The translations under genes were made by a program, and so were the position numbers. DNA of 58,483 bases, the filler included, from Piptocephalis cylindrospora (taxonomy: Eukaryota): assembly GCA_003614145.1 (NCBI GenBank). It is 5 parts of 5 records of this genome, joined end to end, with 100 filler letters (N's around TTAATTAATTAA, not from the genome) between each part and the next. Parts side by side here need not be neighbours in the genome. Positions count along the whole stretch, not along the records: positions 1 to 11,778 come from KZ987993.1; positions 11,879 to 23,560 come from KZ987994.1; positions 23,661 to 35,224 come from KZ987996.1; positions 35,325 to 46,866 come from KZ987997.1; positions 46,967 to 58,483 come from KZ987998.1. One strand, written 5' to 3'. Positions within the stretch are counted from its first letter, which is position 1; each line of letters starts with the position of its first letter. Below, piece by piece: positions 1-49,241 of the stretch. The notes under the pieces were generated by a model. The model made no database searches, had not been told where the DNA came from, and worked only from the letters and a program-made list of their open reading frames with translations.

Positions 1-20
1 CCATGTGGATACATCACCCC
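1..20. repeat. 20-bp inverted copy (fold-back) of 619-638 at contig start
   Basis: 1-20 CCATGTGGATACATCACCCC is the exact reverse complement of 619-638 GGGGTGATGTATCCACATGG. Confidence 0.9.
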
Positions 21-1525
21 CGTATCAAACATTCTCTCGGTGGTGAGACGTAAAAGGGATTTGTCCACATGGAAAATACCAGTACCTGGAGTGACGACAA
101 CAATGGAAAGGCCTGTGCGTACAAGATCACGGTCAATGTAATGGCGATCAAAGGTGGTGAGGGCTAGATTAACGGCTTCGAGGATATTGCCCTCCTCGGC
201 GGAGGTATTAGACCCGGTGATGGAGACATACTCCCCTCCACCATCCTGTTGTTCCAGGATGGTCTGTTGAAAGGTAACAAATTCGCGCCGAAGCTGGCCG
301 AGGGATTCTCTCCAGCCTCGACCGTGGGATTCGCAGTCAGCAAGGACCTTGTAGAAATCTCGATACCACTTTCCACTCCATGAGCAGTAAAGTCTATCGG
401 GCCCCTCGGTGGGATAGAGAACACGAGTGAAGAGGATGATGGAGACAACATGGTGGGTGGAGGCATCCTCCCACCGACGAAAGAGTTCAGGGAGAAAGCC
501 AGAGGTGGCCTTTTCAAAATAGACCTCGCCATCCTCGTCAAAGTCCCACATTTCTCGGGACATTTGAAGGAAGAGATGGAATCTTGCGGATTCGGACCGA
601 AAGAGTATTTTTGTATCTGGGGTGATGTATCCACATGGAGTCTATGGGAATAAGAGAGAGGGACTGAGTAAAAGGGTGGTGGGGAAAAAGAAGTGAACAG
701 ACATACCGGCTGACCCTGGCAGTATATTTCCTTGACGGTAGTATGGATACATCCAGCAAAAGTGATGCGTTTCTTGGTGTAGACACAGGTGCCTTGAATG
801 CTACGGTTCAGTCTCCACATGTCGCTTCGGCCCAAATACTGATCCCGAAAGGTAAGGGTGACAAAGTCGGCGGCAACGGATTTAGGATCAACCTATTCTC
901 AAGTAATGGAGAGGACGTTTAGATGAAGGGAGGAGGGAGGTGATGAAGAAAAGGGAAGCCACGTACTCTTTTGACCAGAACATCGGCACGGGATTGAAAG
1001 CCAAAGGCCTGTTGAATCTCTTGGCAAAGGGAAATCTACAAGTGGTAGGAGTGATAAGAGGATGGATGAGGCAGTTCTTATGACGTGAGAGAAGGGGAGA
1101 GAGAGAGAGGGAGAGAGACGGACCTGAAAGGAGGGGCGGGAAATAAGATCCTTATCGGGTTCATGATACATGACAAGGACGCGTCTCTGGCCCTGGGAAG
1201 GCCGTTTCCTACCAGGAGGAGCCAGGTCGGATTTGGATGAGGGGGAGGATGGGGTAGGGGCCTGATAGTGATGGGAGCCGGCTCGGGATTCGTCCCGGGA
1301 AGGCTGATAAATTTGCAGAATATGTCCGTTCTGAAGGTTAGGAAGAGCATCTGGACGGATGAGGGCTTCATGCTCGGAGAAGGAGGGGGGATGGACCCAC
1401 AGGTTTAGGGTCTGCCACTCGCCCACGTTGGCAGGATGGCCAAAGTGGATCGGGCCAGAGCGAGAGGTGGGTGGGGTGGTGACGGGAGTTGTAGGATGGG
1501 ATATGGGTTTTAGTGCGGGCGGCAT
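21..1525 (-). CDS. IML1: IML1/SEA1/DEPDC5 (GATOR1/SEACIT subunit), 5' part; 3' end cut by contig edge
   Basis: Exons 1525-1124, 1035-967, 892-707, 641-~21 with GT..AG introns. Spliced protein has FRDQYLGRSDMWRL, FRSESARFHLFLQMSREMWDFDEDGEVYFEK and GNILEAVNLAL..FDRHYIDRDLVRTG, typical of Iml1/DEPDC5. Confidence 0.93.
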
Positions 1526-2459
1526 CGTGATGGGATGGAGGATAGGATCGCTGGACTAGAGTATAAGGAAGGATGGTGTCAGCATGGGAAAGTAATACGG
1601 AACGGGTGCGATGGAGTGCTCCAGTACTGGCTATCCAGATCAGGAGAAGGGAACACTGTTACCTCGACATACGGTGCTGGACGTCAGCAAGGACAATCCA
1701 AGGTCCGGGATAGTGGAGGACAAGGAGGAAGAGGAGAAAGGAGGGTTGAGGGATCACAGAGTCATATAGTCATCGGGGGGTTGAGCTTGACCCATGCACT
1801 TTATTTCAATAACAGGGTCGATGCGTTGTTCTCGGTGGGAATTTCATTGTCTTCAATGTTGCACTGCTTCTACTAAGAGATCTTGAAGGATGAAAAGGAT
1901 CCCTTTTCAGTATTTGATGGCGAGTGGAAACTATTGATGGTCCCTGCTTACCAAAAGGAACATGGCGTGCCCATTCTTCTAGGTTAGGTGATAATAAAAT
2001 CAGTTTATTTTCCCTCATGGGGAAGGCTATGGAGTATCCGAACGCATTACCCGCCTAGGCCCATCCTTCTAGGCTAGGTGAAGCTAGGTAATTATGTATA
2101 AGCTTGCTTCAATGAGACTGGCTAAAGTATTATAGAAAGAATCAACAGGGATGGGAGGAATGAGTTGACATGAACTTATTCATCGCAAAACTGCTAATTC
2201 TAACGGCATGCTAGGTCAATACTGGCTTATCCGTAGCTGAAAAATGAATGGCTCTTTTATGTTGTATTTACCCCTATAGTGGGGGGATTGCTTATCACGT
2301 CAATTGCCCCCAAGAACGTGTTTTGGGATAACACGTCGTCCTTAGAAAGGTTGCACACATCTCCCGCGGTCCCAAACACCTAGGATCTCGTCACCCCTTT
2401 CTTTATCCTTTCATCTCTCTGGGATCCCATCTTTTCTGCTCAATTCAAGCTAGAAAAAC

Positions 2460-3831
2460 ATGTCATTTGGACAGGGCCTTACTACGCGCTCGAGCTTCCT
2501 CTATGGAACCTTGCTGGGTCTTTTGGGTGGACACGTCATCTTGAGACTCCTTTACCGCCTACTTCCCCGACTTGTTCCAGGCCCTGGCCAGTGGAGGAAG
2601 CCGGAGGGGCATGGCGTGCCTCGGGTCACCCCGACCATTCTGGCCCAGCCGTTGATCGCCGATAGTGTATGCGATCTGGTAGGACACACGCCCCTTGTTC
2701 GGATCCACTCGTTGTCCGAAGCCACTGGCTGTGACATCCTGGTAAGCCTAAAGTATTGTCCCGGGTCAGTACGGTATATCTCACATTGACCCTGACTCGA
2801 CTATGATGTGGGGTGGGTGATAGGCAAAGGCCGAGTTCTTAAACCCTGCAGGAAGTACGAAGGATCGGGTGGCGCTAGCCATGATTCAGGAGGCAGAGAA
2901 GAAGGGGAAATTGGTTCCGGGGACGGCATCGACGATCTTTGAAGGAACGGTGGGGTCGACGGGGATCTCCTTGGCGACCCTAGCAAGATCCCGGGGATAT
3001 GGGTGTCACATTGTCATGCCGGATGACCAAGCCAAGGAAAAGTACGAGTTGCTGGAAAGGCTGGGAGCAACGGTGGAGAGGGTGAGACCCGCGTCGATTG
3101 TGGACAGCAACCATTTCGTGCATGTGGCGAAACGAAGGGCGGAGGAATTCGATGCGACGTCCCTTCAGGCCTACCGGGAGGCCGGAGGCACGGATGGGCA
3201 GTGTGCTCGGGGATACTTTGCGGACCAGTTTGAGAACCTCACGAACCACCGGGCCCATGCTCAGACCACTGGCCCGGAGATCTGGGCGCAGACGTCAGGA
3301 CGGTTGGATGCGTTTGTGGCGGGCTCCGGGACGGGAGGAACGATTGGCGGGGTGGGGAGCCACCTGAAGCGACGAGCCCCGAACGTTCGAGTTATTCTGG
3401 CGGATCCCCAGGGAAGCGGTTTGTATAATCGAGTACGACACGGTATTTTCTACGCCTCTCAGGAGCAGGAGGGGACACGAAAGCGGCATCAAGTGGACAC
3501 TGTGGTGGAGGGCGTGGGGAATAATCGGTTGACGCGGAACTTTTCTCAGGGCGAGGCGCACATTGATCAGGCCATCCGGGTGTCGGATGCTGAGGCGGTG
3601 CGCATGGCCCGGTGGCTCTCCCATCGCGATGGTCTCTTCATTGGGAGTTCAACCGCAGTGAATTGCGTGGCGGCCCTTCGTGTGGCTCGGTCCATGGGTC
3701 CGGGTCATCGGATTGTCACGCTCATGTGCGATTCTGGACATCGACACCTGACCAAGTTTTGGGATGATGCCTACGTCGAGGCCCATGGGCTGGACTCGTC
3801 CATCCCCGAAAGCCTGTCTTTTGTTGCATGA
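2460..3831 (+). CDS. Cysteine synthase-like PLP enzyme (cysteine synthase 2/MCY1 type) with hydrophobic N-terminus
   Basis: Exons 2460-2741 and 2824-3831. Motifs GHTPLVRI, KAEFLNPAGSTKDR (PLP lysine), EGTVGSTG, GSGTGGT, CDSGHRHL. Confidence 0.93.
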
Positions 3832-4983
3832 GTAGCGACGACTCAATAGACATAGTAGCTGCTGTGTGCTTTATCCTGGACGGTCATGACGAGATGGAAA
3901 TTTCCCTGGCAGAGTCCTACAGACATCGGGGTCAATGGCGGAGGTGACACGTCTAGTGAACGGGGCGAGGATCGGCAGAGTGGAGTTGACATGGTCTGCA
4001 ACCGCCATAGAGCCATGACGGAGTTCCTAGGGAGGTGTCCTCCAGATCTTTGCGTTTTAGGTGGTAGGGCAACGAACAAGAGGTAGTGGGCACGTTGCGT
4101 TGTGTTGCATTGGCCCATCCTCCTCCTCCTCCTTCTCCTCCTCCCTCACTGACTGGGGAAAATGGTACTAAGCATGCTCACTCTGTCCTTTTCTTCACTT
4201 AAGGCCCCATTTCCCTACTTTGCAGAGGGACGGTATGTTCACGCTCATATTCATCATTGATAACGGCCCAGTCCCTTATGAGTCCTCACACAGGGGTGAC
4301 GATCTAGGGATATTGTCTGTCAAGTCTCGCATCCCATTCCATTCTCAGATCACTGACCAGACGATGAGTGAGAGGTAAAGGTAAAAATTGGGGATGTGCA
4401 AGCGAGTGAAACCCTCGGGACCAGAACTGTACGATGGATGTTTCCATGCCAGCCCTTCCCCTTGGACCGCCGATTTGGACTCTTCTAATGCCAAGGTCGT
4501 CCTCGTATATATCATCCTTGGATGGGTAGTGATGGATGACCAGCTTAGCCCAAACCCTTAACTCTCTTTGAAATCCTCCGGACATTTTCAATAACCCGGA
4601 TGTAAATGGGACGGATGACTCTCTTGGGTCGTTAGGGGGGTTCTGGCCTCTAGTATCCAGCCAAATCTTCTTTAGAACACTCGACCTTCCTTGGGTCAGT
4701 CAGTCCGGTCATGGCTTCAGTGTGTGAGATACTTGGAGGAATATCTCTTTCCAGCAGGACTTCTTCGCTTCCCCCTTTCCTCTCCCACAAGGTAGTGCCA
4801 TGATTCAAATGGAATGTTCCATCGAAGGTGTGTCTGTGTCTGCTCCTGACTTTCATCGTGCAAGCTAGCCAAGGGATCTGCCTAGCGCCAGGCATTGGTG
4901 CCATTGATCTCCACATCCACACTTTTTGAACCCTTTTTGTACGAGAGCCCATGTGTGTTTGTGTCTGTATGTCTTTGTGTGTA

Positions 4984-5037
<54 letters not shown>
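4984..5037. repeat. Compound (TC)n(GT)n microsatellite
   Basis: Directly visible. Confidence 0.95.
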
Positions 5038-5040
<3 letters not shown>

Positions 5041-5052
5041 ATACCCGGGAAA

Positions 5053-6084
5053 ATGCGCCTATTGTCCTTCGACCCGTCAGTAGAGGGAGACCAAGGGGCA
5101 CACATGCCCTTCCTTCCCCTAACTTACTTGGTGCCACCTTTCCGCGTCTCGCACACTCCTCTCCATCCTCAAGGGACTGCCGGTACTACGGTGGCGCAAA
5201 TTCGCAAGCCAAGGACTGGGTCATAGTGGAGGATGGGACCGGCTTCACCGCCACCATGCCTCATGTCGAATCATCCATCCATGTCTATAAAGGCCTCGCG
5301 TTTCCCTCAGTCCCTTCCCTCGCCCCCAGACCTATCACCCAGCCTGTACTTCATCCCAACTCAGTTAGTCGTATCTCCTCTCTCCTCTCTCCTCTTCACC
5401 ATCCATTCCAGGACACCTGATTAGCCCTGGAGCCACACTGGTTATGCTCATCTCTCCTTCCCATGCCCCAAGGGCAAATCGTGCTAGCTTTGGAAGGATC
5501 TCAGCGGATCTCGCGGTGACCACCATGTCATGGGGTATAAATGGATCGGAAAGCATATTATCTGTCGCTTCCTCCTCCCCCCCCCATCCCTCATTTCTCC
5601 AGGTCATCATGACCGGGGTGGGATGGGGGGGGATATATCCTCTCCCTCATTCTCTTCTTCCTCCAGTTCCTCCAGAACCTACTCCCCCACCACTCCCACC
5701 TCCCATGTCCCTTCTATCCCGTTCAAGGAGCACTCGGTCCTTCTGCATGGCCGGCTTGAAGGGGTTCTCGCTCAGTCAGGTCCCCCAGTCGCTTCAAAGA
5801 ACGTTGACGGTGGGATCCGACTCACGCCAAAAGGACAAGAAATAGCTCCTTCATCTCCTTTTCCCAGACTCATCACTTCTATCCCGCGGACCCATCTCAA
5901 GGCCGAGCCCATCCTATCCACCCCGGTCATCCAAGCCTCCCAACCCACCCATCTATGGACTCGACCCAAGTACTCGGATCTGTGGGCACCCGCCTCCGGA
6001 TCCTGGTCCAAGCCCTCCATCCACCTTGATCATGCACCCGCCATCAGTCCTATACTTATCCCAGGCCCTCCCCATCCCCGGTGA
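5053..6084 (+). CDS. Possible multi-exon hypothetical Ser/Pro-rich protein
   Basis: Phase-consistent intron 5535-5602 leads into the 5530-6084 frame. Upstream exon structure is uncertain and no domain is recognised. Confidence 0.3.
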
Positions 6085-6527
6085 CCTCTCCTCCGTGTTG
6101 CTGTAATGCTCTGTTCCATCATGAGCTGTACAGATATACGGAGTCTCCCCAGCGCACATCTCCCTAATTGTATAGCCCCCTCTCATCTCTACTTCAAAAT
6201 AAATTTTGATCTTCCTAGACCTTTCTTATAGCTTCTTTCTTTGTATTGGTATGGACATCATAGAACTCTGGCACCATTCAACCCACACAATAGTCATCAT
6301 AATCATCGTATTATCAAGACGTCATACTAGTCATCGTGTATGACATGAATGTAAAATCAATAGGCCGTGTTTCATCACCTTTGATCCTGATAGAGCCCCA
6401 GTCATTCCATCTCAATCATTTCTTTACCTATCCTCCATCCCACAGCTCATCTTTCTCTCTATCCACCTTCCCCATTCCCATATCTCATCCCACCTCCCTA
6501 AATACCCAGCCAACCTAGTAACCCAGC

Positions 6528-7625
6528 ATGCGTCGACGCGGTGCTGGTATCGCCGGACTACAGAGACAGGCACAGGCCAAGGTTTCTTATTCATCCTTGC
6601 AACTCCTCCGAGCCCTCCTACTCACACAGCCTTATCCCGCTTGTTCTTTTATAGGAGCAATACAGAGAGGCAGGGTATGCCCTGGCCACAAGCCAATTCG
6701 AACAGGTTGGTACTGCATACTCTGTCTTTATCCTCCAAACCCACCATTTCTCACCTGCCCTGCCCTCCCAGCTCAACGCTCAGCTTGACCTGTTCCGTAC
6801 CCATTTAACTCAATTTTCTCAGAATCACCAGCTGACACTACGAAAGGACCCGGTTGTCCGGGCTCGTTTCCTTCAGCTATGCTCCCTTTTGGATGTCGAT
6901 CCACTGGCTGGTGCGTCACTTCAACAACAGCACCTCATGGCTCCATATTTCCCACTCATCATCATTGCCCCTTGGAGTAGTCGATGCCACCTCCAGTGCG
7001 TCCTTATCCCAAAAATCTCCAAGGCCCCAGTTAATCATGCAGGTCATTGAAGCCGCATCCTCCTCTAGGCACTATGATGGTGGACTCACCCCTTTGGGGA
7101 CCTTGCATGATCGACTTCTCCTCAAGAATCAAGGGGTCACTCCAGATGATATCCTTCGCGCCATTGAGGCTCTCAATGTACTTGGTGCTGGATGGGAGGT
7201 CCTTCATCTCGGTGGGAACCAGTATATCCAGAGCCTTCCTAGTCTTCTCAGTCCCGATACCTCCGAGGCCCTCTCCCTCATCCAGGTATGTATGCGCTCG
7301 TAAGGCTATATTTAGAGAAGCTCCTCTTCAACTCATTCTCATTGATACATGGATAGAGCCTTGGTCAAGGTCATGTCAACGCCGATCAACTGACAAGTCA
7401 TCTGGGCTGGACCAAGGCAAGGGCCATGGCTTGCATGGTGAGTCGGCCTTCCTTGATCTGCTCTCTTTTCTCCCCCTCTTCCTTCCTTCCTTCCTCTAAT
7501 AATAATGCGATTCCGCCATCACGAGATAGGAGGATGCCCTTCGACATGGCATTTGTTGGGTGGACGACGTCGCCTCTCCCCCTCAATATTGGGTCCCAGC
7601 CTTTTCCCTCCAGGGCAAGTACTGA
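6528..7625 (+). CDS. SNF8: ESCRT-II subunit SNF8/VPS22/EAP30, with an internal micro-inversion at 7003-7030
   Basis: Exons start at 6528, 6655, 6772, 6981, ~7356 and 7530. MRRRGAGIAGL, LRKDPVVRARFLQLCSLLDVDPLA, VTPDDILRAIEALNVLGAG, LGWTKARA and GICWVDD..PPQYWVP match the Snf8 family. Confidence 0.92.
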
Positions 7626-7831
7626 TTGCATCGGTTGGTATCCCCTCGGTGCACACGGATCTGTCAGTTTTCCCAACCTTTTGAACTAAACCATCCAATT
7701 TGTGTTATACTCAATAAAGTCAAAGGATAACATTGTTGTTTATTATCATTGGCTCAGCAGCACGAGGGCATAATAGACCCAAAGGGGTATCCGCACTTGC
7801 ACACATAGAGACTGGTCCCATGCGTCTCCCC

Positions 7832-11320: not shown

Positions 11321-11322
<2 letters not shown>

Positions 11323-11354: not shown

Positions 11355-11357
<3 letters not shown>

Positions 11358-11778: not shown

Positions 11779-11878
11779 NNNNNNNNNNNNNNNNNNNNNN
11801 NNNNNNNNNNNNNNNNNNNNNNTTAATTAATTAANNNNNNNNNNNNNNNNNNNNNNNNNNNNNNNNNNNNNNNNNNNN
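11779..11878. other. Artificial contig linker N44-TTAATTAATTAA-N44
   Basis: Identical 100-nt spacer occurs four times; the 12-mer gives stops in all six frames. Confidence 0.97.
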
Positions 11879-16491: not shown

Positions 16492-16565
16492 GCTCGCTTA
16501 GCTCAGTTGGTTAGAGCGTCGTGCTAATAACGCGAATGTCACAGGTTCGACCCCTGTAGTGAGCA
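16492..16565 (+). tRNA. tRNA-Ile (AAT), intronless
   Basis: Acceptor stem GCTCGCT/AGTGAGC, D arm TAGCTCAGTTGGTTAGAGC, anticodon arm TCGTG-CTAATAA-CGCGA, T loop GGTTCGA, followed by TTTT. Confidence 0.97.
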
Positions 16566-23560: not shown

Positions 23561-23660
23561 NNNNNNNNNNNNNNNNNNNNNNNNNNNNNNNNNNNNNNNN
23601 NNNNTTAATTAATTAANNNNNNNNNNNNNNNNNNNNNNNNNNNNNNNNNNNNNNNNNNNN
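23561..23660. other. Artificial contig linker
   Basis: N44-TTAATTAATTAA-N44. Confidence 0.97.
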
Positions 23661-24143
23661 AAGGGGGAGGGAGGAGCGAAGAGAAGGAATGAATAGTATT
23701 TCGTATTGTCTGAGCAAAAGACGGTGTTGTTGTTTCTGTCTGCTCTATCCAGACTGCTCTAGCAAAACGACAGCCAAGAGAGTTATCTGATGATTCAAGG
23801 GTCCCGCCCGTGTGCATGCATGTTGCACCGTGCATCATGCCCTGCGGGTCCAGAGACAAGATACTGGAAAGAGAAGAAAACAAAAAGTAGGAGTCGAAAG
23901 GGAAATGCACTCTTAATATATTAGAGGGGATTCATCTCGGAATGGGGATGAGGAGAGGGAAAGAAAGGGGAGGGGGAGGAATATGAAATTCCCACATGAC
24001 CCGATCCTGTCCGACTCGTTCACCGTCCATCCCTACCATTCCTCCTCCCAGGGTACACACACTCATGCATGGCCCAAAAGGATAGGGAAGCATGAAGTGG
24101 GTGAGGGACACTCAGTAAATGAGTAGCAACTGCTCACATCAAC

Positions 24144-25556: not shown

Positions 25557-26082
25557 ACTGGGTATTTAAGTGTGTGTACTAGGGGGGAGTAAGGGGGGGT
25601 TGATGAGATGAAGGGTTGGGGAGGGTATATTCCGCGATGCTAGCAGGCGAAAGTAGGTATTGGGTGAGGGTGGGTGGATAGGGCTGTCTACCAAATAGAG
25701 TAGATTTGCTTTTGAGGTTGGGTGGAGGAGTACTAAGAGTGCACGAGGTAGGGGATGGGGAGGGGAGGGAGATGTAGGGTAAGGTGAGGAGGAAGGGAAG
25801 GGAAAGGGAGGGGGGGTAGGATGGAGGGAAGGGGCCAAGGACCCTGAGCCTTTTGTACTTGCATCAGCTGGGATAGAGGAGATGCCAAGGAGCCGAAGCA
25901 AGATAAAAATGGGAGTGAGAGATGGGAGTTGAGGGGGGAGAGGCTGGGCATGGGAGATCTGAGTTTGGATGGGAGGAGGGACACACTGTAGTCCCTTCTC
26001 AGTCCTCCCTACCAATGAGTAGGAGGGGCGGACCGATGGATGCGATGGGGAAAGAGGTAAGGGCACGGAGACAACGTGTGGT

Positions 26083-28035: not shown

Positions 28036-30072
28036 TTAATATCCGGGGTTAAAGCAGGTGATGGAAGAACCCTTCGTACCACACATCAGTGATATGCCAC
28101 AGTTGTATGCCACGTACTTGCCATCGGAGCATCCAAGGTAATCTCCGGTCGTGTTCTCCGACACGCAAACCTGAGCATTACCTTGACAGGTTCCACCAGC
28201 GACGGGAGCATCGGCTGATCCTTCTCCACCGGTGGAGTATCCGGTATCAGCGGAGGGGTATCCATTATCTCCCGCGCCCGCCTCACCTCCAGTCCCGGGG
28301 GAAGGCTCGGTATAGCCATAGCCTTCACCTTCAGGGTAGGCCTCATCGGGAGTCTCCGAGTAAGTCTCCTCGGGAGTCTCAGAGTAAGTCTCCTCGGGAG
28401 TCTCCTCTTCGGTGCAGGGAGCAGGAGAAGAGACGGTCTGAGAATCAGTATCTCCCTCCTCGCCCCCAGGGTAAGTCTGGTCGGGGGTCTCAGAGTAGCT
28501 CTGGTCGGGAGTCTCCGAGTAGGTCTCATCGGGGGTCTCAGAGTAGGTCTCCTCGGGAGTCTCCGAGTAGGTCTCATCGGGGGTCTCCGAGTAGGTCTCA
28601 TCGGGGGTCTCCGAGTAGGTCTCCTCGGGAGTCTCAGAGTAAGTCTCCTCGGGAGTCTCCTCTTCGGTGCAGGGAGCAGGAGAAGAGACGGTCTGAGAAT
28701 CAGTATCTCCCTCCTCGCCTCCAGGGTAAGTCTGGTCGGGGGTCTCAGAGTAGCTCTGGTCGGGGGTCTCAGAGTAGCTCTGGTCGGGAGTCTCCGAGTA
28801 GGTCTCATCGGGGGTCTCAGAGTAGGTCTGGTCGGGAGTCTCCGAATAGGTCTCCTCGGGAGTCTCAGAGTAGGTCTCCTCGGGAGTCTCCGAGTAAGTC
28901 TCCTCAGGAGTTTCCGAGTAGGTCTGCTCGGGAGTCTCCTCTTCGGTGCAGGGAGCAGTCTCGGTCTGGTCTTCGGTATAACCATCCTCACTTTCAACGG
29001 GGGTCTCAGAAGTTTCCTCCTTGGTGCAAGGAGCAGAAGTAGAGGGCTCATCCTGGCTATCAACACTTCCTTCCTCACCACCGGGGTAGGTCTCCACAGG
29101 AGTAGCGTAACTACTATCCTGTCCGTCCGTGGTCGCTTCATCGTCTTCGGGAACGGTGACGACTTCGGTGGTCTGGGCCGTCTCGGTCACCGTCTTGGTC
29201 ACATCGGTGTAGTTGGTGATCTGAGCCGTTTCCGTTAGCGTCTCGTAGTCCGAGAGGACCTTTGTTTTGGTTACCCGATCGGTCTCGGTGAGGACTTGAG
29301 TGAGGACGGCTGTGTCCGTCACGTACTCGGTGGCCGTAGCGGTCTGGTACTCGGTGGTTTGATACAACTCCTCCTTGCGCACAACCACAGTCATAGGCAC
29401 CACTTCGGTGCAGGTCTTGCGCACATCCACCGTCTCGGTGACCTGGTCTGTCTCGGTAAGGTACGCCGTCTGGGTAATGACATCGGTGACCTGTTCCGTG
29501 GTGTAATCCGTGACCTCTGTGGTCTGCGTCACCTCAACATTCTGCGTCTCCGTCACCGTCTCCGTCACGGGCATTGTCTCTGTCACCGTCTCTGTCACCT
29601 GGACAGCTTCGGTGGTAGGAACCGGCACCGAGGGATCCTGTGTATCACTAGCACCTTCCTCTCCACCAGGATAGGTCTCCTGAGGAGGTTCTGTGGTCTT
29701 GGAATTCCCAGAGTCACCGTAGTTGATCTCTTCGTCATCCGCAGGAGGTGGGGTATTATCGGCGCCGCCGTAACCGATCTCTTCGTCGTCGCCCTCAGGA
29801 TACGCGGGTTGCGTATCAGCGGAGGTAAAGGCCCCATCGACGGAGGCGGGGGCGGGGGCGGGAGCGGAGGAGGCGACAGGAGCGGCGGCGGCAGGAGCGG
29901 GAGCAGGAGCGGGGGAATCGGCAGGGACGCCTTCCGCGTATGAATTGTCCTGAGGAACCCCAGGAGATGCCTCGAGATATCCGGTATCTCCTCCGCCGGC
30001 AGTGTAATCCTGGGCGGAGACCTGGGAGGCCAAGGCCAGGGCAGCTAGAAAAAGAGTGTGTTCAATGTGCAT
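28036..30072 (-). CDS. Secreted Thr/Glu/Pro-rich repeat protein with C-terminal 6-Cys CBM19-like module, 678 aa, intronless
   Basis: Signal peptide MHIEHTLFLAALALASQVSA; T-x-T-x core; TYSETP(E/D)(E/Q) octapeptide array; C-terminal CQGNAQVC...YLGCSDGKYVAYNCGISLMC...C. Confidence 0.88.
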   Translation of the reverse strand: MHIEHTLFLAALALASQVSAQDYTAGGGDTGYLEASPGVPQDNSYAEGVPADSPAPAPAPAAAAPVASSAPAPAPASVDGAFTSADTQPAYPEGDDEEIGYGGADNTPPPADDEEINYGDSGNSKTTEPPQETYPGGEEGASDTQDPSVPVPTTEAVQVTETVTETMPVTETVTETQNVEVTQTTEVTDYTTEQVTDVITQTAYLTETDQVTETVDVRKTCTEVVPMTVVVRKEELYQTTEYQTATATEYVTDTAVLTQVLTETDRVTKTKVLSDYETLTETAQITNYTDVTKTVTETAQTTEVVTVPEDDEATTDGQDSSYATPVETYPGGEEGSVDSQDEPSTSAPCTKEETSETPVESEDGYTEDQTETAPCTEEETPEQTYSETPEETYSETPEETYSETPEETYSETPDQTYSETPDETYSETPDQSYSETPDQSYSETPDQTYPGGEEGDTDSQTVSSPAPCTEEETPEETYSETPEETYSETPDETYSETPDETYSETPEETYSETPDETYSETPDQSYSETPDQTYPGGEEGDTDSQTVSSPAPCTEEETPEETYSETPEETYSETPDEAYPEGEGYGYTEPSPGTGGEAGAGDNGYPSADTGYSTGGEGSADAPVAGGTCQGNAQVCVSENTTGDYLGCSDGKYVAYNCGISLMCGTKGSSITCFNPGY
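28340..28960 (-). repeat. Coding 24-bp minisatellite (TYSETPEE) with a higher-order 255-bp duplication
   Basis: Tandem 24-bp units; the block encoding TYPGGEEGDTDSQTVSSPAPCTEEETPEE recurs at ~28426 and ~28681. Confidence 0.92.
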
Positions 30073-30752
30073 AGTGCTGATTGATCTTAAGGGTTGGAAG
30101 AGTTGGGTTTAGAGGGATTGAGAAAGGAAGGAATAGTACCTCAGGATAAGATCAAAGGAGTATGAATGGGAAGTGTGAGGTTTGGCAAAGGTGCAAGGAA
30201 AGCACGGTAGCTAGTCACTAGGACAGGAAAATGAAACGGAGGGGGGGGGGGGGCAATTGCTTCTCCGGCCGGCGAAAAAGAGCAAAAGGCGAGTGGAAAG
30301 GGGAGGAGTAGGGAGGGGAAAGTTGGAGCAAAAGGAGGCACAGATTGGGACGCACACACAGTGGCTACTGGCACAAAGAATGCGAAGGAAGGAAAGAGTA
30401 GGCAAGGGAAGGAGGAGGGGAAGGGAGAGGGGGAAAGAGGAAAGAAAGGTGAATGAGAGGAAAGGAAAGTATGCCGTTGTGGCAACTTCTCCGACTTTAT
30501 ATCCTTGGCATCGGGGATGGCTGAGGGATTACCCAGCGTGATGAATGGCAGCGGTTGAATGGAAACGACTTGGAGCCAAGAGAAGGGGCGACGCACCACT
30601 CCATCCAGCTGGATGATATTGGTATACCTGACACTCAGAGGGAGAGTGGGAGACCACTGGGGGGGAGTGAGAGGAGGGAAGCTCAAACACACTGCTGGGT
30701 GTTCACACCAAGACAAAGATGAGGCCAGCTGAGGGAGTTTGAGACAAGGGGG

Positions 30753-33102: not shown

Positions 33103-33133
<31 letters not shown>

Positions 33134-35224: not shown

Positions 35225-35324
35225 NNNNNNNNNNNNNNNNNNNNNNNNNNNNNNNNNNNNNNNNNNNNTTAATTAATTAANNNNNNNNNNNNNNNNNNNN
35301 NNNNNNNNNNNNNNNNNNNNNNNN
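35225..35324. other. Artificial contig linker
   Basis: N44-TTAATTAATTAA-N44. Confidence 0.97.
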
Positions 35325-37964: not shown

Positions 37965-40900
37965 CTAATCCTTGTTCAGTTGATCCTTCAGATACTGAAG
38001 GAACTGGGGAAAGCTCCAAACCTCACCCGCCCGGTCCTGGACGAGGTGGGAGAGGAACCACATGCGAAGAGCTGGGTCTCCATCCTCCTTGACAATGTGG
38101 ATGTCGGGGAGGACGAGGTCTCGGGATTGGATTCGGCGTAGAGACCGAAGGATAGCCCGAACCCGATGGTTGAACTCATGCTCCCCTTCGGGGAAGTTCC
38201 CATCAGGACACTCCAACTTGCCCCCAGGGAGGGCGGCGTAGGAGGGGACGTTGAAAAGGTCCTGGAGGAGACGGGGAGATACTTCCCTTCCCACCCAGAA
38301 CATGACGTGTTGTCCATCAGAAAGGAGGAAGCATCCGTGCCGTTCGAGCCTTTCACTAGACAGATTCATGCGGGGAGGCAGGACTACATGATCACCCGAG
38401 GCTCCCTCCTCCATGGGTTTCCCGCACTCGGGGCCCATGGTGTGAAGGGCGTAGAGTCGAGGGTGAAGGTACTCGAGCATGAGTTCGGCGGATTGGGAGG
38501 TCAGGAGGTTCTGGGCTTGGGCTCGGAGGTCAGACGGGACGGGGGAGGAGCCTAGACGGAGAGAAACGTGCTTGAGGATGGAAAGAATGTAGAGGGGCAG
38601 GAGGGCAATGGACCTTGGAGCCTGGAGCTGAGCGGTGGCACCGGAGGCGGTGGAGGTCAGTTGGGTCTTGAAGACCCGGAGGATCTGGGCCATCTTGGCT
38701 ACAAGGGCCTCACGGGCATCGTCGATCTTGGCACTAACCGATCTCTCCACACCCTTCTTGGCCAGGAGAGTGGCCATGGTCTGGGCATCGACGGATGCGT
38801 AGATTTGGGAAAGGGAAGAGGTGGTGGGGAGGGCCAGGGTGACCACTCGGATACGGCGTTCCCCATCACAGGATGTATGAAGGACCGCGGTTTGGAAGTA
38901 GGCCAGAGGTCCTGGTACATCCTCTTCCACCACAAACTCCACCCCGTACCCATGACCCGGGGTAACATTGGGCAGGGCCAGAAGATCCATGGACCGGAGG
39001 AAGAAGTGACCATGGAACGCAGTCATGCGGATACCCTTGGAAGCACGAATGCGCATGACAGCCTCCAGACCCGTCCTGGCCCCGAGGAATTGTCGAACTT
39101 CCTCAGTAACCTTGGCCCGGTCTCCGGCACGGGACCCGTTGAATCCAGGGTAAAAGCGATGATCTCCTCCGGTGTACCTAGGGAGGCAAGAGAGGGTGGC
39201 GACATCAGCGTAACCGGATGGGGCAAAGGTTAGGACGTCCAGGGCAATCTGGTGACGGGAGGCCTCGACGGCAAAGTTCTTGTAAAAAGCATCCTGGGGG
39301 CTAAGAAGGGAGGATTCTTTGCCGGAGGACCGTGCCTTGCCCTCATCCCGGGCCTTGAGGGCACCGGGGCCCACGGATGGAAGAGAGGCTTGGATGACGA
39401 TAATCTTTCCACCAATGGACTTGAGTAGTCGGTTGGCCGCATTCAGCGCTGGGCCCAGGGCGCTACCCACGACAGTGGTGTCCCGGAACATGCTGGGGAG
39501 CCTTTCAAGGAGACTCTCAATGCTCTTTCGGGATCCAGGTTGGTTCAGGGGGGTCAGGAGACGATCGGGACGGGGAAGGAAGACCTCATCAATGTCCGAA
39601 ACCACCAGCATCTCCACATCCCTCTCCTCCTCCTCCTCCTCACCCTCCCCACTGGCGGTTTGAGCCCCCGTGGGAAGGGCGTAGAAGTGAAGGGAAGTGT
39701 CGTAGGTGATGATCCCAAACCTGGCTCTGCCTCCTACATCCGGAATGGCGTCGAGGGAGGAGCGGATGGCCGCAGCCATGGTATCCAAAACCCCAGCCTG
39801 GACCGAGGGGAAGGACACATCCAAGAGGAAGAGGTAGACGGGGGGCTGAGGAGGCCTGACCATGTACTCAGACGGAGCAATAAACTCGACGACTGATTGG
39901 GTCAATTCGGCCCGTTCCCATCTCTGGATGGGTTGGTGCGTATGGGGATGGTAATCAAAGTATTGAGGACCTAATGGAGAGGAAGTGAGTCCTGTGAATT
40001 ATGCACTGGAGTAGATATTAAACTCCGAATCCCACTTACAATCGTTGAGGGCAAAGCACATGTTACACTTCCACCGACGCCCAGCCTCCACAAACTGGAC
40101 AAAGGGATTCACGTAGGTTCGGCACCGTCGACACCGGGCAATTTCCCCGACGGTTGGAACAGGCTCCTCCCCAGGGAGTTGGGACTTGTAGGGACAGACC
40201 AAGAGTCCTAGGGGAAGGCCGCTCTTTTTAGCTAGAGCCGGAGTGGCGGGGATAACGTTGACTGAGGCTCTCTTATAAGAGGGATCCGGCAGAGTTTTGG
40301 GGCCGAGTGGGGTGCAGGTAGCGCCATGCGGCAGGACAATAGGCTGGGGAGGTTCATCCAACATCCTCATATCGGGAGGGCCCCCGAGCACAACGGTAGG
40401 AACCTGCTGCTGGGTCTATCAAAAAAAAAAAAGAAGGGTGAGGGGAGGAGGAGGGAAAAGAGGAGGAAAGCGGTCCAGACGTACCTGTTCCATGCCCATC
40501 TGGCCGAATTGTTGAGTCATACCCGAGATATCGCCGGGTTGAGCGGCCCCATATTGCTGTTGGGGAATCTGGTGGCTGGGAGCCTGAGCACCCGGGGTAA
40601 AGGCGTCCCCTGGACCTGAGGGCATACCGTAACCAGGACCTGAGGGCCCCATGGGTCCAGGAGGGGGGGCCAGAGAAGGAGGGGGCAGAGTCGTAGGCTG
40701 TAGCAGCCTCCTGTGGGTAGAGTCTTCGGGACCTTCCACCATGGCTGCCCCCATGGGCCGATCCAGTGGGGGAGCCTGGGCTACGTGGAGGGGCCTGGAA
40801 GCCGCCGACGGGGGAGCGAGGCTGTCCCGGGTGAATGGGCGGGGGGGCGCCTCCCCTTGGCTGGAATTGCTCCTGAACTGGAGGGGGAGGAGAGTGCATC

Positions 40901-41217
40901 GCCTGTTGAGGAGGAAGGCCCTGCTGAGGAGGAAAGCCCTGCTGAGGAGGGAAGCCTTGCTGAGGAGGATGACCTTGCTGAGGGGGGAAGCCCTGCTGAG
41001 GAGGGAAACCCTGTTGAGGAGGGAAGCCTTGCTGAGGAGGATGACCTTGCTGAGGGGGGAAGCCCTGCTGGGGGGGTTGACCCTGCTGAGGAGGGAATCC
41101 AGGCTGAGGAGGCATGCCTTGCTGTGGATGAGGCATACCGTGCTGGCTGCCCTGGGATGGGGGAGGGGAGGAGGCGCCCATGTAAGGCGACCTGGGAGGA
41201 GGAGGGGGTCCTGACAT
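37965..41217 (-). CDS. SEC24: COPII cargo adaptor SEC24, with an apparent +1 homopolymer frameshift at 40663-40669
   Basis: Pro/Gln-rich N-terminus, zinc finger RCRRCRTYVNPF...WKCNMC, VEFIAPSEYMVRPPQPPVYLFLLDVS, EAVMRIRAS, GERRIRV, gelsolin-like C-terminus. Confidence 0.95.
40903..41112 (-). repeat. Coding 18-bp tandem repeat PPQQG(F/H/Q/L) in the SEC24 N-terminus
   Basis: About 11 consecutive hexapeptide units. Confidence 0.9.
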
Positions 41218-41694
41218 GAGGGAGGAGGGGGATGGGTGGGATGTAACGAGTAAGAAGAGATGTGGAGGAAAGGAAGAAAGGGAGGCACGAAAGGCAGAGG
41301 AGTGAGCGCGTCGTGGTGGGAAGGGAAGAAAAGGAGTTGAGTAGGCGCAGAGGGGGGCAAGTCGGAGTAGGAAACACCTGTTCAGCTGTGCATTGAGCCT
41401 GTGTCTGTCTGTGTGTGAAGGGATTTTGGTGGGTCTGCACCCACCGCACATATCCACATCTTTCATAGTGCAGCCGGGATAAGCCATAGTGAGAGTCAGT
41501 AGGTAGTCCTCTCCTCTCACATTCCCTCCCACTCCAAGGCTGGTCAGAGCAAAGTGCTATGTACTAATGTGAGGAGCACTGTTCCTCAGTAGGGCATGAC
41601 TTTAAAAGGCCCTCTCGAATCGGATAGCCAAGAGTGCCCAAGATTTGCACTCAAGCTCCTCCTAAAAACCATCTCTATCCACCTCTTTTCCAAC

Positions 41695-42523: not shown

Positions 42524-44937
42524 CTAAGCCACCTTTAGACTCTTGGCAGCGGCCTTTCGACCCCATAGGGTCAGGCCAATGGCCCCAACAGTCAGGATTA
42601 GACCTACCATCAGTTCAAGGATTTGCATCCCCTTGGACGTGACAAGGAATAGCCGGAACACCACTGGGTCCCACAGAGACTCTACCCAGGTTGCCTTGGT
42701 CGGGTCTTCCACGGTGAAGACTCCCGTATTTGCATCCATCTTCAGGCCCATCCCATATGCATCATGTAATCTTGTCATTCCCCATAGACACTGCGACGCC
42801 ACACACTCTTGTCCCTCCCGGCAATCCGCCACGCTCTCACACGACCCTTCCCTCACCGTCGCTGTTAGATTGTACATGTAGGCATAGACGAAGCTTGTGG
42901 TCCAATCCATGGACCGGTGTTGGAAGATGGAGTAATGCGCGGTCTTTCCCACCGGCTCATTGGCTAATGAAAAAGGAGAGAGAGGGCGAATGGATAGAGA
43001 GAGTATATGAGTAAACGGGGGAAAAGATGTCCAGCAAGGCCCATTTCACCTACTCGGAGTAAATTGTCGGACCAACGGACAGGAAAAGTTATTAATCAGA
43101 CAATCCATCAATGTATCCACCTAGATAATGGATGGTCCTTGCATGAGTAGCGACCCTTTTCTCTTCCCTCTCACTTCATCCTCCTCACTTACCAGAGTAC
43201 AATTCACATTGAGAGAGCTGGGAATACCTGTCCCGTTCCCCCCACCAGTTTGAGCAAGGGACCAGGCCGCACGGGCGGTACTATTGGCAATGGAGCAGAC
43301 CGATTCCCAGGACATGGGAACGTACACATCGTCCAGGTCGGCTTGCCATATTGATCGGTCCCCAGGGTTCTCGTAGTCGGTAAGGACTGCATGTCGTATA
43401 TTGGGCCGGGTCCGAAGGATGCTCTGGGCACTAGAGGGGGGAAGGCCCTGAGATGAGCTGGGGATGTTGATGAGGGGACGAAGGCCAGAGGAATTGAGGG
43501 CTTGGGCCAGGGCGGTGTTGGGGGCCGAGGTAGTGTGAGTATGGGCATAGAAACGATTGCTTGTGTTCAAAGGCGGAGGCAGATTCATGTGACCGATGGG
43601 CCCCAGCTCCAGGATGGTGTTGAGGCTATCCGGGTTGATGTGCGTATAATCCAAGTCCCTTCGGCACGGGGAGGCACATGCGGCTTCTTTGTATGGGCAT
43701 CCAGGCGTATTTTTACTGAAAGGCACGTCACATGTAAAGGTTCCACCCGCCTCGACATCCGACCAGAACCGCTGAGACCCTGCGTAGCCCCAGCCCTCAC
43801 TGTGGAAGAAGGTGAAGAGAAGATGGCCGGTGGATGGAGCTGGAGCTCGGGAAAGCGCCTCAGCGATGGCCAGGAGGCCCACTACCCCGGAGATGGCCGC
43901 TTCCGCCCCGATGCTTTCATCATGGAAGAATGTCCGCTCATTCATCCCTGTGCTCATCATGATGATGGGGCGATTGTCTGTCCGGGAGATGGCCGACGAT
44001 GCCGTAGAATAGATTGAGTACCCACCCACTGGAGCGCACCAACCTAAGAGAGGGGATGGGAAATGACTGGTTAGGTATGAAGGGACAACTAAATGGGAAA
44101 AAGTCTCACCTCTCCGTAGACACGTAGGTGCATCGTACGCCGAATACATAAAGGCATCAAACTCCACCGAGTACATGGGGAAGGTTCGGTAGCCTCCCTT
44201 GGAGTTGGATTCGACCGCTCGCATCAGTGCAGAATAGGTTGAATCATGAGAGGGGGAGGTGGCAAATATGGGGATATCATAGGTACGGTAGATTAGCCCA
44301 TTACCATTGGGATTCCACTGAGTCTGCGTATTTTGCCCAGCATACATGCCGAATTCGCAATTAGGACAAGATACGTCAGGAGAGTAACTGGATGGACGAG
44401 TGGCATTGGAGAGGATCACAATAATCCCTGACACCTTTTTCGTCTTCATCAATCGATCTATTGTATCTCTGGGTAGGAGAGTAGATGGGGGCGGTAAGAT
44501 GGGAGATGGGAGATGGGGGATGGGGGATGGAGGAATGGATGAAACAAAGGAGAACCTACGGGACAAAGTACCGGATGGGAAGGAGGAGGGCATGATTTCC
44601 ACCCGAGGGAGGGTTGGCGATGAAGGCCTCCAGATCATTATCACTGGGAACACCGTACACGATGCCAGATACCCCATTCCTTGGAGATTGACATCCAATC
44701 GTTCCCGTGGCGTTGAGGAGACGGGCACAAGGAGAAGCATTTAGGGTAATATAAGTAGAGTTATAAAGAAGCTGGCCGTTGCTTGCTCCGGGGTTAGCAG
44801 CTATCATGGGGCAATGTGAGTAAGCATAGGGTAATGAAGAGCTCCTAGGCTTACGACCTACCATGCACGCCAGGTCCTAGCCATAATACGACAAGGGAGA
44901 AAAGTATGGCCCCCAGGTAAGAGGAAAGGATGGACAT
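42524..44937 (-). CDS. NCSTN: Nicastrin (gamma-secretase subunit)
   Basis: Signal peptide; PCARLLNATGTIGCQS; SPDVSCPN; WNPNGNGL; TCLRRGWCAPVGGYSI; FHSEGWGYAGSQRF (DYIGS equivalent); LPPSS; TWVESLW followed by a transmembrane helix; five introns. Confidence 0.92.
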
Positions 44938-45314
44938 GCCGTGTACTACAGGAAGAAGGGGAGAAATGGGATGGGCGGATGGGAGACAGGAGATGGAGCA
45001 AGGATGGGAGGGGTGGTGGTAAGGAACAAGGGTGAGAGAAATTGCGACAGGGATGAGTCTTGTGTTGGGTGGCAGGGATGGCAGTTTTTAAAGCTGCGAG
45101 CTCTGTGGTAGCCCTTTGCACAGTAAGGCCTTTGGCAGGTGCATAGAGAGAGTGTGTGAGGGAAGGGGGTAGGGAGGTGAATGATCATTGTGCTTATATG
45201 CGCCCTCATGGCCTACACATTTTCCATGGTATTTAGCCTAACACGGCTATCGGTTCAATGTACAGATCCTCCTTCCTCGCCCAACTAAACTGCATTGCCT
45301 CTATCCATCCAAAT

Positions 45315-46866: not shown

Positions 46867-46966
46867 NNNNNNNNNNNNNNNNNNNNNNNNNNNNNNNNNN
46901 NNNNNNNNNNTTAATTAATTAANNNNNNNNNNNNNNNNNNNNNNNNNNNNNNNNNNNNNNNNNNNN
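46867..46966. other. Artificial contig linker
   Basis: N44-TTAATTAATTAA-N44. Confidence 0.97.
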
Positions 46967-47056
46967 GTGAGACAGCGACCTGTGCAGCACACTCCTTGGG
47001 AAAAATGCGTCTTTGTGGGGGGAAAGGGGACGTGGGGGGTGGGAGTCCCCCTCTTC

Positions 47057-47088
<32 letters not shown>

Positions 47089-47111
47089 AGCTCTCTATTG
47101 AAAGGACATAC

Positions 47112-48140
47112 TCTTTCGGGTCGTCCAGGGCAAGGGACTCTAGCACCTTGACCATGGGTTGGATTTCATTGACCAAAGAGCGTAGACGAACATGCTGAGT
47201 GGTAAAGGATGACTGATGGGAAGCGAAGGGAGAATGAGTGATGGATAGTGGGGATCCATATTTGCCTCCGGGAACACCATATACCTTATCCTTTCCTGCC
47301 CGCCACTCTTCTTCGACCCCTGACCACTGTTGAAGAATATATCGCTGTATGGTGATGGCAGCCTTTCGTTGACACTGGTAAAAACGGCTCTTGTACCTGG
47401 GGGTGTCCAAATACTGAGGCTATATGAACAAGGGAAAGTTGGAAGGTAAGCCAACATGTCATCCATGCAAGCGCCCTCTTCAATCCTACATGGGCATTGA
47501 GAAAGGCAATGGCCTCTTGCACCCGATGGACCATGGGTAGGAAATCCGAATGGGTCACCATGGATGGATCAGGCTGGTCGAAAAGGGCACCAGCCTTTTC
47601 AGCCAGATCAAACCAAGAAATGGTCTCTTCCAATGCCTTGACCAACTCGGAGAGATGGGCCTATGGGTATTTGGGTAGGAGGATGAGTATATGCCTTGTG
47701 GGAGAATAAACGGTATATGGGCCCGACCCTACGCGTACACCTACCTCCTTTTCCATCCAAGGTTCACACGAAGACCTGACCCCACTGGTATGGGTTTCCA
47801 AGACCTGGTACGTGGCCTCTACTTGGGCCAAGGCCTGTTGCAAGACCGCAAGGTCTTGGGTCGTCTGGGCGCACAGGCCCCTTGCCTCTTCCATCTTTTC
47901 GCATTCGCGTCTATACCCATGAGGAGGGATGAGTGGTGTGGTGTGGTGTGGCGTGGTGGAGATGACCGCCAAGATGGGTGAGGGTGAAAAGACCAACCTA
48001 AAAGGCTGCCGAGACCATTGGTGTGCCTCGTCCTCCTCAATACGTAGCCATCGCATGAGTGCATCTGGGCCATCCTTGGTGGTGGCAGGGGCGTCCAATG
48101 TGTCTTTGGGACTGGGAACGGTCTGAGGAGATTCTGACAT
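47112..48140 (-). CDS. COG3: COG3/SEC34 exons 1-5 (N-terminal half)
   Basis: Exons 48140-47998, 47910-47745, 47660-47490, 47419-47285, 47212-47112. SDFLPMVHRVQEAIAFLNAH|PQYLDTPRYKSRFYQCQRKA is the Sec34 signature. Ends in phase 2 (GA|gtatgt). Confidence 0.85.
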
Positions 48141-48578
48141 GGGATGAGCGTTGTTGTTGCTTTCGGAGAAGGATGGTGATTACAAGGGATTCAGTCTGCT
48201 CAACACGACAGCAGCACTACCGCCGATACTTGGACGGATGACCGTCCTTTTATACCGATCCCGACCGCGCCACCAGCTTGTATGTTCCACACTAGCCAGT
48301 GTGAGCCAGGCCATTTCACACACACTCAAGGACAGGGCTACACAGTAAGAAGGGGCAAAAAGATCTCGACTCCTGCTGTACTTGGGAGAGGAGGAGTAGA
48401 GTGTACAAACCCCACATCCTCTTCAGGGTTTTCAAACGCCGCCCGTGTGTCCCAGGCACTATGGAGGCCCACTGATCACCTCTACAAGGCTCATGCCACT
48501 CCCTCCTCCCAGTGTACAAAATAAAAGGCCTCGGCGAGCTGTGAGCATCTCGCCTCCTCTTTTCCCCTTTCCTCCCAG

Positions 48579-49241
48579 ATATGGCGAATTTCTCCAAGAG
48601 TGTGTTCGACAGTATGCTCGTCTTCGACAGCGATTAGGTATCCCCTTGATCAACTCTCATCTTTCCACGCTTCCTCAATCAAGTATCGTTGCTTTTGTAC
48701 GTTGTTCTTGCCTCTGCATCCCAACGTTATATTCATTTCACTTCACCTCACCCATCCAATCTTTACCCTCACAGTGCCAGCAAGTCGCTGCTTACCTAGC
48801 CTCTCTGTGCTTGGAAGAAAGGAGAATATATGGTCTGTTCTTCTTCAAGGATCATAGCAATATTCTTAGGTAGGTCGGTGCTCTAGCATCTCCCCATCTC
48901 CTTCCGAACAGTAATAGTAATCATGGTACTCATACCAACGCCACCCTTTTTCTCTTCGCTTCAGCGATGAAATCCTCGTACCTTTTCTACAGCCCCTGGC
49001 CTATGCTCTAGAACCCCATCTTTCCCCACTCTCCCCATCCTCCTCCATCTTCCAACAATGCCTATCGGCCATCCGTGCCTCCCTTTCCGAGGAACCTGCT
49101 GCATCCATCGCCCTTGGGGATCAGGTAACCTCTTCTGACCAACACCACCCTTCCCCAGTCCAGGAAAGGACAGTGGGGGAGGCGGAAGTGACAGAGGAGC
49201 AGGTCAAATCCGAGATAGAGGCTGGATGCTCCATTCAATAA
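48579..49241 (+). CDS. COG3: COG3/SEC34 exons 6-8 (C-terminal half) on the opposite strand
   Basis: Exons 48579-48696, 48775-48869, 48965-49241. (E)YGEFLQECVRQYARLRQRL...AYLASLCLEERRIYGLFF matches the COG3 EYxxLLxEC...Y...R..L / C.dE..l...FF region; begins in phase 2 after a polypyrimidine tract and CAG. Confidence 0.78.

What the first reader, a model, noticed from the sequence alone, without database searches (positions are those of the whole stretch)
1..49241. Recurring inversion-scrambled conserved genes: a system or a systematic artefact
Three inversion-type junctions fall in conserved genes within 58 kb: IML1 fold-back, SNF8 28 bp and COG3 ~1.45 kb. The latter two leave all coding information intact and restorable, and both have CT/AG-containing ends. 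Inference: if present in native DNA this would suggest gene scrambling/unscrambling or a high template-switch rate that I do not know of in fungi. No recombinase gene is visible in the window. Artefact remains at least as likely.
Basis: inference. Interest (0 to 1): 0.7.

Follow-up and report, generated by a model that had tools for sequence, protein, structure and literature searches.

The report
Amplification fold-backs, not gene scrambling
The three 'flipped' genes lie on two unlinked contigs of a fungal draft genome: two are likely laboratory amplification artefacts at contig starts, and the third is normal, expressed sequence shared with a related species, possibly left by an old 20-base inversion.

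Summary
No scrambling system. The window is five unlinked contigs joined by 100-base spacers; its proteins are named Piptocephalis cylindrospora by a source. IML1: the first 20 bases of contig 1 are the exact reverse complement of 619-638, beside an imperfect 11/17 match; none of four runs shows this joint, and cover there is 2-3x or nil. COG3: the strand switch is real; a congener's COG3 is collinear. Only run X2, probably a source library, covers it, and its contig pieces fit one fold-back junction near 48577, not a two-ended AGCT inversion. Both fit inverted chimeras of whole-genome amplification. SNF8 is different: the 28-base stretch is read as written in DNA, in spliced RNA of another strain from another study, and in a congener's protein, so nothing is unscrambled. 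Its opposite strand does resemble the family motif lost here (p about 0.005-0.015), so a fixed ancient 20-22-base micro-inversion is about even odds. CT/AG ends carry no signal.

The parts
1..20 (.). Fold-back remnant at the start of contig 1; exact reverse complement of 619-638
   Evidence: no strand-change joint in 4 of 4 runs laid, nearest contig starts at 18 with depth 2.4
21..37 (-). Imperfect match (11 of 17) to 602-618 next to the junction; likely the priming site of the template switch
   Evidence: 7 of 10900 positions of contig 1 match as well
21..1555 (-). 5' part of IML1/DEPDC5, exons in order, cut off by the fold-back at about profile position 266 of 286
   Evidence: Pfam PF24438, PF12257
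619..638 (+). Template copied after the IML1 switch; normal IML1 exon sequence
   Evidence: spanned without a break by an X2 contig 414-3498
6528..7622 (+). SNF8/VPS22 (ESCRT-II), open frame, five introns, three of them seen spliced in RNA
7003..7030 (+).
7006..7027 (-). Best-fitting candidate ancient micro-inversion (20-22 bases); minus strand resembles the lost family motif
6989..7044 (.). Weak inverted flanks (6989-6995 with 7038-7044, 6 of 7 pairs) centred on the candidate micro-inversion
   Evidence: 66 of 2661 control sites do as well; gapped score not significant (316 of 2661)
11779..11878 (.). Contig spacer (first of four; others 23561-23660, 35225-35324, 46867-46966)
46967..48577 (-). 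Likely fold-back loop at the start of contig 5, written in reverse: rest of the split intron, G26 run at 47063-47088, COG3 5' half and its upstream DNA
   Evidence: extent inferred
47112..48140 (-). COG3 5' half, five exons, residues 1-250 of the congener protein
48548..48581 (.). Branch point in run X2: three contig pieces share 48548-48577; one leaves the window sequence here; likely site of the single COG3 junction
48579..49241 (+). COG3 3' half, residues 251-415 of the congener protein, ending in a stop

Best explanation
The three sites are not one system: the IML1 and COG3 junctions are likely fold-back chimeras made during whole-genome amplification, each at a contig start, while the SNF8 stretch is native, expressed sequence that possibly records an old fixed micro-inversion. 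Inferred mechanism: a displaced 3' end re-primes on a nearby opposite strand through a short imperfect match, giving a molecule with a unique loop between two inverted arms. An assembler keeps one arm and can write the loop either way. At IML1 (loop 21-618) it is written gene-forward and the junction shows as a 20-base tail. At COG3 (loop about 46967-48577) it is written backwards, so the gene looks inverted with nothing lost. Shown: the sequence arrangement, the collinear congener COG3, the native state of SNF8. Inferred: that the libraries were amplified, the exact COG3 junction (about 65% for the one-junction model), and the inversion ancestry of the SNF8 motif (about 50%).
For: Five concatenated contigs. 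Both events begin at base 1 of a contig; 9 of 10 genes with Pfam hits on two or more frames keep one strand and the right order, COG3 being the exception. Spans of 0.6 and 1.6 kb, inverted, with short imperfect matches, as described for amplification chimeras: 85% inverted, mostly under 10 kb, 2-21 nt priming, about one per 22 kb of product (PMC1855051, passages). Depth is patchy: X1 0 to 687 and X2 0 to about 20 within 7.8 kb, leaving aside one repeat bin, each covering a different part. IML1: X2 cover falls to 2-3x at the contig end; no joint in 4 of 4 runs. COG3: in X2 a third piece (10.5x) shares 48548-48577 and then leaves for sequence not in the window; depths 10.5, 35.2, 56.7 fit a fold-back prediction of 59.9 for the doubled arm; the contig start abuts that point, gives a CAG acceptor, and matches the junction side at 4 of the last 5 bases. 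Congener COG3 is one 415-residue model on a 68.7-kb contig. SNF8: X1 contig 5933-7800 with 0 differences; X3 spliced contig 6980-7283 with 0 differences and 0 gaps; congener reads SLSQKEPRPEL.
Against: No library method is on record for X1, X2, X6; amplification is inferred from depth. No independent run covers COG3 (X1 two short spurious hits, X3 and X6 none), and X2 shows only the inverted join, with no piece carrying the un-inverted intron and no cover of 46967-47061; the one-junction model needs that piece to have been clipped at the G26 run. Depths are means over whole contigs of an uneven library, so their fit is rough. The IML1 joint was seen in no run, so its support is unknown. Only contigs, not reads, could be laid.
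Confidence: 0.86

Rival explanations
1. Programmed scrambling: genes are stored with inverted pieces and restored in another nucleus, stage or transcript, using CT/AG ends.
For: COG3 halves join with no coding loss; X2 shows only the inverted join; inverting the SNF8 segment in silico raises the profile score from 241.6 to 256.3 (28 bases) or 259.5 bits (22 bases).
Against: Spliced SNF8 RNA of another strain keeps the written orientation; the congener protein has it too and is 80-83% identical overall; congener COG3 is collinear; end motifs are at chance level; IML1 is cut off, not restorable from the window. The 12 papers listed of 26 that held at least three of four scrambling terms concern ciliates by title (listing only).
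Confidence: 0.02
2. COG3 carries a real inversion in this strain, fixed or switchable, with ends at the AGCT sites (47089, 48540) or nearby.
For: One X2 contig runs across both proposed ends at 35x with no alternative path at either; the restored intron would be 61 nt, near the 66-92 nt range.
Against: X2 is probably a source library (its cover ends where contig 1 ends). Ends offer only a 5-base inverted match, one of 81. It would split a conserved trafficking gene that is whole in the congener. It leaves the third X2 piece and the depth step unexplained.
Confidence: 0.05
3. COG3 is an artefact, but a two-ended one: a double template switch or an assembler misjoin at the G26 run and at about 48540.
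For: G26 run beside the proposed left end; X2 contig stops in it; 61-nt intron.
Against: Needs two switches with no deletion; 46967-47062 is C-rich like introns only when read on the minus strand (C 0.36, G 0.24); does not explain why the contig start abuts the X2 branch point.
Confidence: 0.25
4. The SNF8 resemblance is chance: the motif decayed by ordinary substitutions and the opposite strand fits by coincidence.
For: Per-block p is only 0.005-0.015 (23 of 1500, 17 of 1506, 21 of 1500, 11 of 1506, 13 of 2500) and the block was chosen after the fact among perhaps dozens in the window (my estimate); a count of consensus identities is not significant (138 of 1500 shuffles reach 5); the neighbouring residues 82-87 lost the consensus too with no inversion to explain it; the opposite-strand reading is largely forced by the sense peptide.
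Against: The best inversion fills the seven codons between retained L and Q/E-L anchors; reverse-only and complement-only controls peak at 17.0 and 13.9 against 32.9 bits; weak inverted flanks share the centre (66 of 2661); Syncephalis keeps the motif.
Confidence: 0.48

Closest known systems
Inverted chimeras of multiple displacement amplification (PMC1855051)
   Same: Inverted join of two segments under 10 kb apart, short complementary priming site, patchy depth; fits IML1 and COG3.
   Different: Seen here in assembled contigs, not reads; library method not on record; COG3 looks deletion-free, which I ascribe to how the loop was written by the assembler (inference).
Local inversions in single-cell eukaryote assemblies (Monosiga SAGs, PMC5591225)
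   Same: Strand-switching scaffolds through genes in an amplified assembly: 55 scaffolds, 48 genes, 0.71% of genes (passages).
   Different: Those authors could not tell natural from artefactual inversions; 2 of 14 labelled genes here is a higher share, on a small and selected sample.
Micro-inversions and template-switch spacer inversions (PMC8755829; PMC8604942)
   Same: Human-chimpanzee micro-inversions are 17-33 nt (abstract); template switching inverts spacers inside yeast coding DNA (passages). The SNF8 candidate is 20-22 nt and in frame.
   Different: The yeast coding cases invert 2-5 bp between arms mostly over 9 bp and change up to five residues; the SNF8 candidate changes seven residues of a conserved motif, has only weak flanks, and is shared by two species.
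Scrambled genes of ciliates (Oxytricha, Chilodonella)
   Same: Only the look of an inverted gene piece that can be restored.
   Different: No restoration in RNA at SNF8, no pointer repeats above chance, no sharing of the COG3 arrangement with a congener; separate germline and somatic nuclei are a ciliate trait (recalled; titles and abstract starts).

Membership tests
MDA inverted chimera | Two nearby segments (<10 kb) joined in inverted orientation | tested here: met
   IML1 span 0.6 kb; COG3 1.45-1.6 kb
MDA inverted chimera | Short complementary priming site at the junction | tested here: met
   IML1 11 of 17 beside the junction, 7 of 10900 by chance; COG3 4 of the last 5 bases under the one-junction model, weaker
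MDA inverted chimera | Arises in an amplified library (uneven depth, drop-outs) | tested here: inconclusive
   Depth 0-687 in X1, complementary gaps in X1 and X2; library method not on record
MDA inverted chimera | Junction private to one library, absent from independent DNA | tested here: inconclusive
   IML1 joint in 0 of 4 runs, but only X2 and X3 have any cover; COG3 join in X2 only, the other 3 runs lack cover; congener collinear
Programmed gene unscrambling (ciliate type) | Expressed copy differs in order or orientation from the stored copy | tested here: not met
   SNF8 spliced RNA contig equals the window across 6980-7283; not testable for COG3 or IML1
Programmed gene unscrambling (ciliate type) | Pointer repeats or a shared end motif above chance | tested here: not met
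   81 five-base pairs at COG3; 79 of 1525 two-base ends at SNF8; best SNF8 fit lacks CT/AG ends
Programmed gene unscrambling (ciliate type) | Dedicated machinery and separate germline and somatic genomes | not testable with these tools
   No whole genome held
Site-specific invertible switch | Long inverted recombination sites flanking the segment | tested here: not met
   Contig 5 has no exact inverted match of 16 bases or more
Site-specific invertible switch | Both orientations present in DNA | tested here: inconclusive
   SNF8 one orientation in X1 and X3 contigs; contigs drop rare forms; COG3 covered by X2 only
Fixed micro-inversion by template switching (SNF8) | Reverse complement matches the outgroup in register | tested here: inconclusive
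   Protein level only: p 0.005-0.015 per block; no outgroup DNA found
Fixed micro-inversion by template switching (SNF8) | Flanking perfect or near-perfect inverted repeats | tested here: inconclusive
   6 of 7 pairs at 6989-6995/7038-7044 (66 of 2661 controls), gapped score not significant; old events may have lost them
Fixed micro-inversion by template switching (SNF8) | Native and inherited | tested here: met
   Same orientation in DNA run X1, RNA run X3 of another study, and the congener protein; Syncephalis keeps the family motif

The most novel reading that the evidence does not exclude
One 20-22-base in-frame inversion on the Piptocephalis stem, after the split from Syncephalis, turned the most conserved motif of ESCRT-II subunit Vps22/SNF8 into seven unrelated residues in a single step; it was fixed, is expressed, and is kept in two species, so ESCRT-II in this mycoparasite works without that motif. 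(The bolder reading, programmed scrambling, is at about 2% and is listed as a rival.)
Probability: 0.5. Interest if true: 0.4.

Novelty: not a real feature. Interest (0 to 1): 0.18.

Why it matters
As a system it does not exist, so the main value is a warning: fold-back chimeras in amplified fungal assemblies can look like clean, restorable gene inversions, because the assembler may write the loop backwards, and concatenated contigs make them look clustered. The remnant worth keeping is SNF8: if the micro-inversion is right, it is a larger in-frame coding inversion than the 2-5 bp yeast cases in PMC8604942 and a natural test of whether Vps22 needs its conserved motif.

Tried and rejected
No whole genome is held, so no genome-wide strand-switch survey. 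Pfam scan covered 283 of 333 stop-free frames of 70 residues or more; the 50 left out were mostly alternative frames. A COG3 search with the variable N-terminal frame found nothing; a shorter exon query did. Two scans of metagenome contigs found no relative of COG3 or SNF8 (64 and 117 pattern hits, none confirmed), so no outgroup DNA. The loose end of the third X2 piece is not in the window (first 18 letters searched). Lack of cover in X1, X3, X6 at COG3 and in X1, X6 at IML1 is no proof of absence. For the SNF8 profile, 22 of 151 proteins outside 200-300 residues were dropped, and the two Piptocephalis rows were left out of scoring. One of three diverged SNF8 blocks spans an intron and was skipped; block 225-229 gave 1095 of 2500. 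Earlier-finding look-ups returned nothing. No paper held both 'Piptocephalis' and 'ESCRT'. Rejected: AGCT and CT/AG ends as a signature; a 28-base length; the IML1 tail as a genuine palindrome.
Full report
What the window is. It is not one locus. Four identical 100-base spacers (N44-TTAATTAATTAA-N44) join five pieces of 11778, 11682, 11564, 11542 and 11517 bases, in falling order of length. These are separate contigs. IML1 and SNF8 are on contig 1, COG3 on contig 5. Window proteins are identical or nearly so to proteins that a source names Piptocephalis cylindrospora, on contigs of 11778 and 11517 bases. No whole genome is held. Pfam labels 14 genes among 283 of 333 frames scanned; of the 10 whose hits are spread over two or more frames, 9 keep one strand and the right order, and only COG3 switches.

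IML1. The gene runs on the minus strand towards base 1 and is cut at about position 266 of the 286-position profile. Bases 1-20 are the exact reverse complement of 619-638; no other of the 10 contig ends has an internal match above 9 bases. Next to the junction the two sides agree at 11 of 17 bases, a level reached at 7 of 10900 positions of the contig. Laid on 1-7800, none of four runs shows a strand-change joint. X2 covers 18-205 at 2.4x, 212-380 at 3.3x and 414-3498 at 13.3x; X3 has about 1.5x over 1-520; X1 and X6 have nothing before about 1800. This is a contig dying in a coverage trough, ending in a fold-back.

COG3. A congener's COG3 is one 415-residue model on a 68.7-kb contig. Its residues 1-250 align to the minus strand (48140 to 47112) and 251-415 to the plus strand (48579 to 49238); the break lies in one phase-2 intron, so no coding sequence is lost. 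Only X2 covers the locus. It gives three pieces that share 48548-48577: one from the G26 run to 48577 (35.2x), one from 48548 onwards (10.9 kb, 56.7x), and one of 507 bases (10.5x) that follows the window to 48581 with one other letter and then leaves it for sequence not found in the window. I place the other letter at 48578 from the 30-base overlap; the tool does not give it. My reading (inferred, about 65%): the 10.5x piece is the true upstream DNA, there is one junction at 48577/48578, and the contig is a fold-back loop written backwards. It predicts an arm depth of 10.5 + 2 x (35.2 - 10.5) = 59.9 against 56.7 seen; the contig start then abuts 48577, gives a CAG acceptor and matches the junction side at 4 of the last 5 bases; 46967-47062 is C-rich like the introns only on the minus strand. 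Against it: X2 shows no piece with the un-inverted intron and no cover of 46967-47061, and the intron would be 147 nt where nine measured introns are 66-92 nt; the two-ended model gives 61 nt. X2 is probably a source library, since its cover ends where contig 1 ends, so its support for the join is not independent.

Why amplification. Within 7.8 kb X1 runs from 0 to 687x and X2 from 0 to about 20x outside one repeat bin, each covering what the other lacks. The library method is not on record, so this step is inferred. In PMC1855051 (passages) 85% of 475 amplification chimeras were inverted, most spanned under 10 kb, priming used 2-21 complementary bases, and there was about one junction per 22 kb of product. 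PMC5591225 (passages) found local inversions in 55 scaffolds of an amplified protist assembly, without settling their cause. That an assembler can write a fold-back loop in either orientation is my inference from the graph shape.

SNF8. This site is no artefact and is not unscrambled. An X1 contig matches 5933-7800 with no difference. An RNA contig of X3, another study and, by 13 substitutions elsewhere, another strain, is spliced at three GT..AG introns and matches 6980-7283 with no other letter and no gap. The congener protein reads SLSQKEPRPEL where the window reads SLSQKSPRPQL. Both lack the family motif (consensus GFWAELLGVGDFYYEL), which 76 of 129 aligned proteins carry as G-x-G-[DENS]-[FY] and which Syncephalis and human SNF8 keep.

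Is it an old inversion? Of 39147 within-exon inversions of 6-90 bases, the best are 7007-7026 and 7006-7027 (gain 32.9 bits; the 28-base version 24.0; best elsewhere 10.6; reverse-only 17.0, complement-only 13.9). They fill the seven codons between retained L and Q/E-L. Nulls are less striking: 23 of 1500 and 17 of 1506, 21 of 1500 and 11 of 1506 with a second scoring, and no significance for a plain identity count; 13 of 2500 with fixed anchors. Weak inverted flanks share the centre (66 of 2661 controls; gapped score 316 of 2661). The block was picked after the fact, residues 82-87 also lost the consensus, and no outgroup DNA was found. I put it at about even odds. The known kind is the micro-inversion: 17-33 nt between human and chimpanzee (PMC8755829, abstract) and 2-5 bp spacer inversions in yeast coding DNA (PMC8604942, passages). 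No supplements were read.

Comparison and verdict. The sites do not work like ciliate unscrambling (no restoration in RNA, no pointers) or a recombinase switch (no long inverted sites). The 12 papers listed of 26 in a search on scrambling terms concern ciliates by title; no paper held both 'Piptocephalis' and 'ESCRT'; both are listings of an open-access library only. The proposed system is not a real feature: two likely artefacts and one native variant. Interest 0.18, resting on the SNF8 lead.

Noticed in passing
window 47112-49241; P0162: COG3 is short in both Piptocephalis species (415 residues in the congener; COG3_C profile matched only 7-127 of 303), so most of the C-terminal domain seems lost.
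   Followed up: partly
window 1989-2061: A 73-base stretch hit by several deep contigs under 90% alike in X1, X2 and X6, with shared other letters; no Rfam match. Possibly a dispersed repeat or a sequence shared with another organism.
   Followed up: no
run X3 on window 1-7800: A food metatranscriptome of another study holds spliced RNA of a near-identical strain (40% of words), suggesting this mycoparasite is active in a food sample.
   Followed up: partly
window 6911-6980: RNA uses the acceptor at 6980, not 6977 as in gene model P0001, giving one residue fewer and the congener's spacing.
   Followed up: yes
window 6601-6654: The X3 RNA contig begins inside predicted SNF8 intron 1 (6582-6654), perhaps a retained intron.
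   Followed up: no
window 3351: Window and X3 read G, X1 and X2 contigs read A: a heterozygous site or a further library in the assembly.
   Followed up: no
window 43124-44876 (-): A nicastrin (gamma-secretase subunit) gene; absent from yeasts and moulds of the Dikarya as I recall.
   Followed up: no
window 24123-25589, 28039-30108, 40357-41556: Long repeat-rich frames with 18-, 24-, 45- and 255-base units and no Pfam family above cut-off; those on contig 3 look like Thr/Glu/Pro-rich surface proteins.
   Followed up: no
window 16492-16565 (+): One tRNA gene.
   Followed up: no
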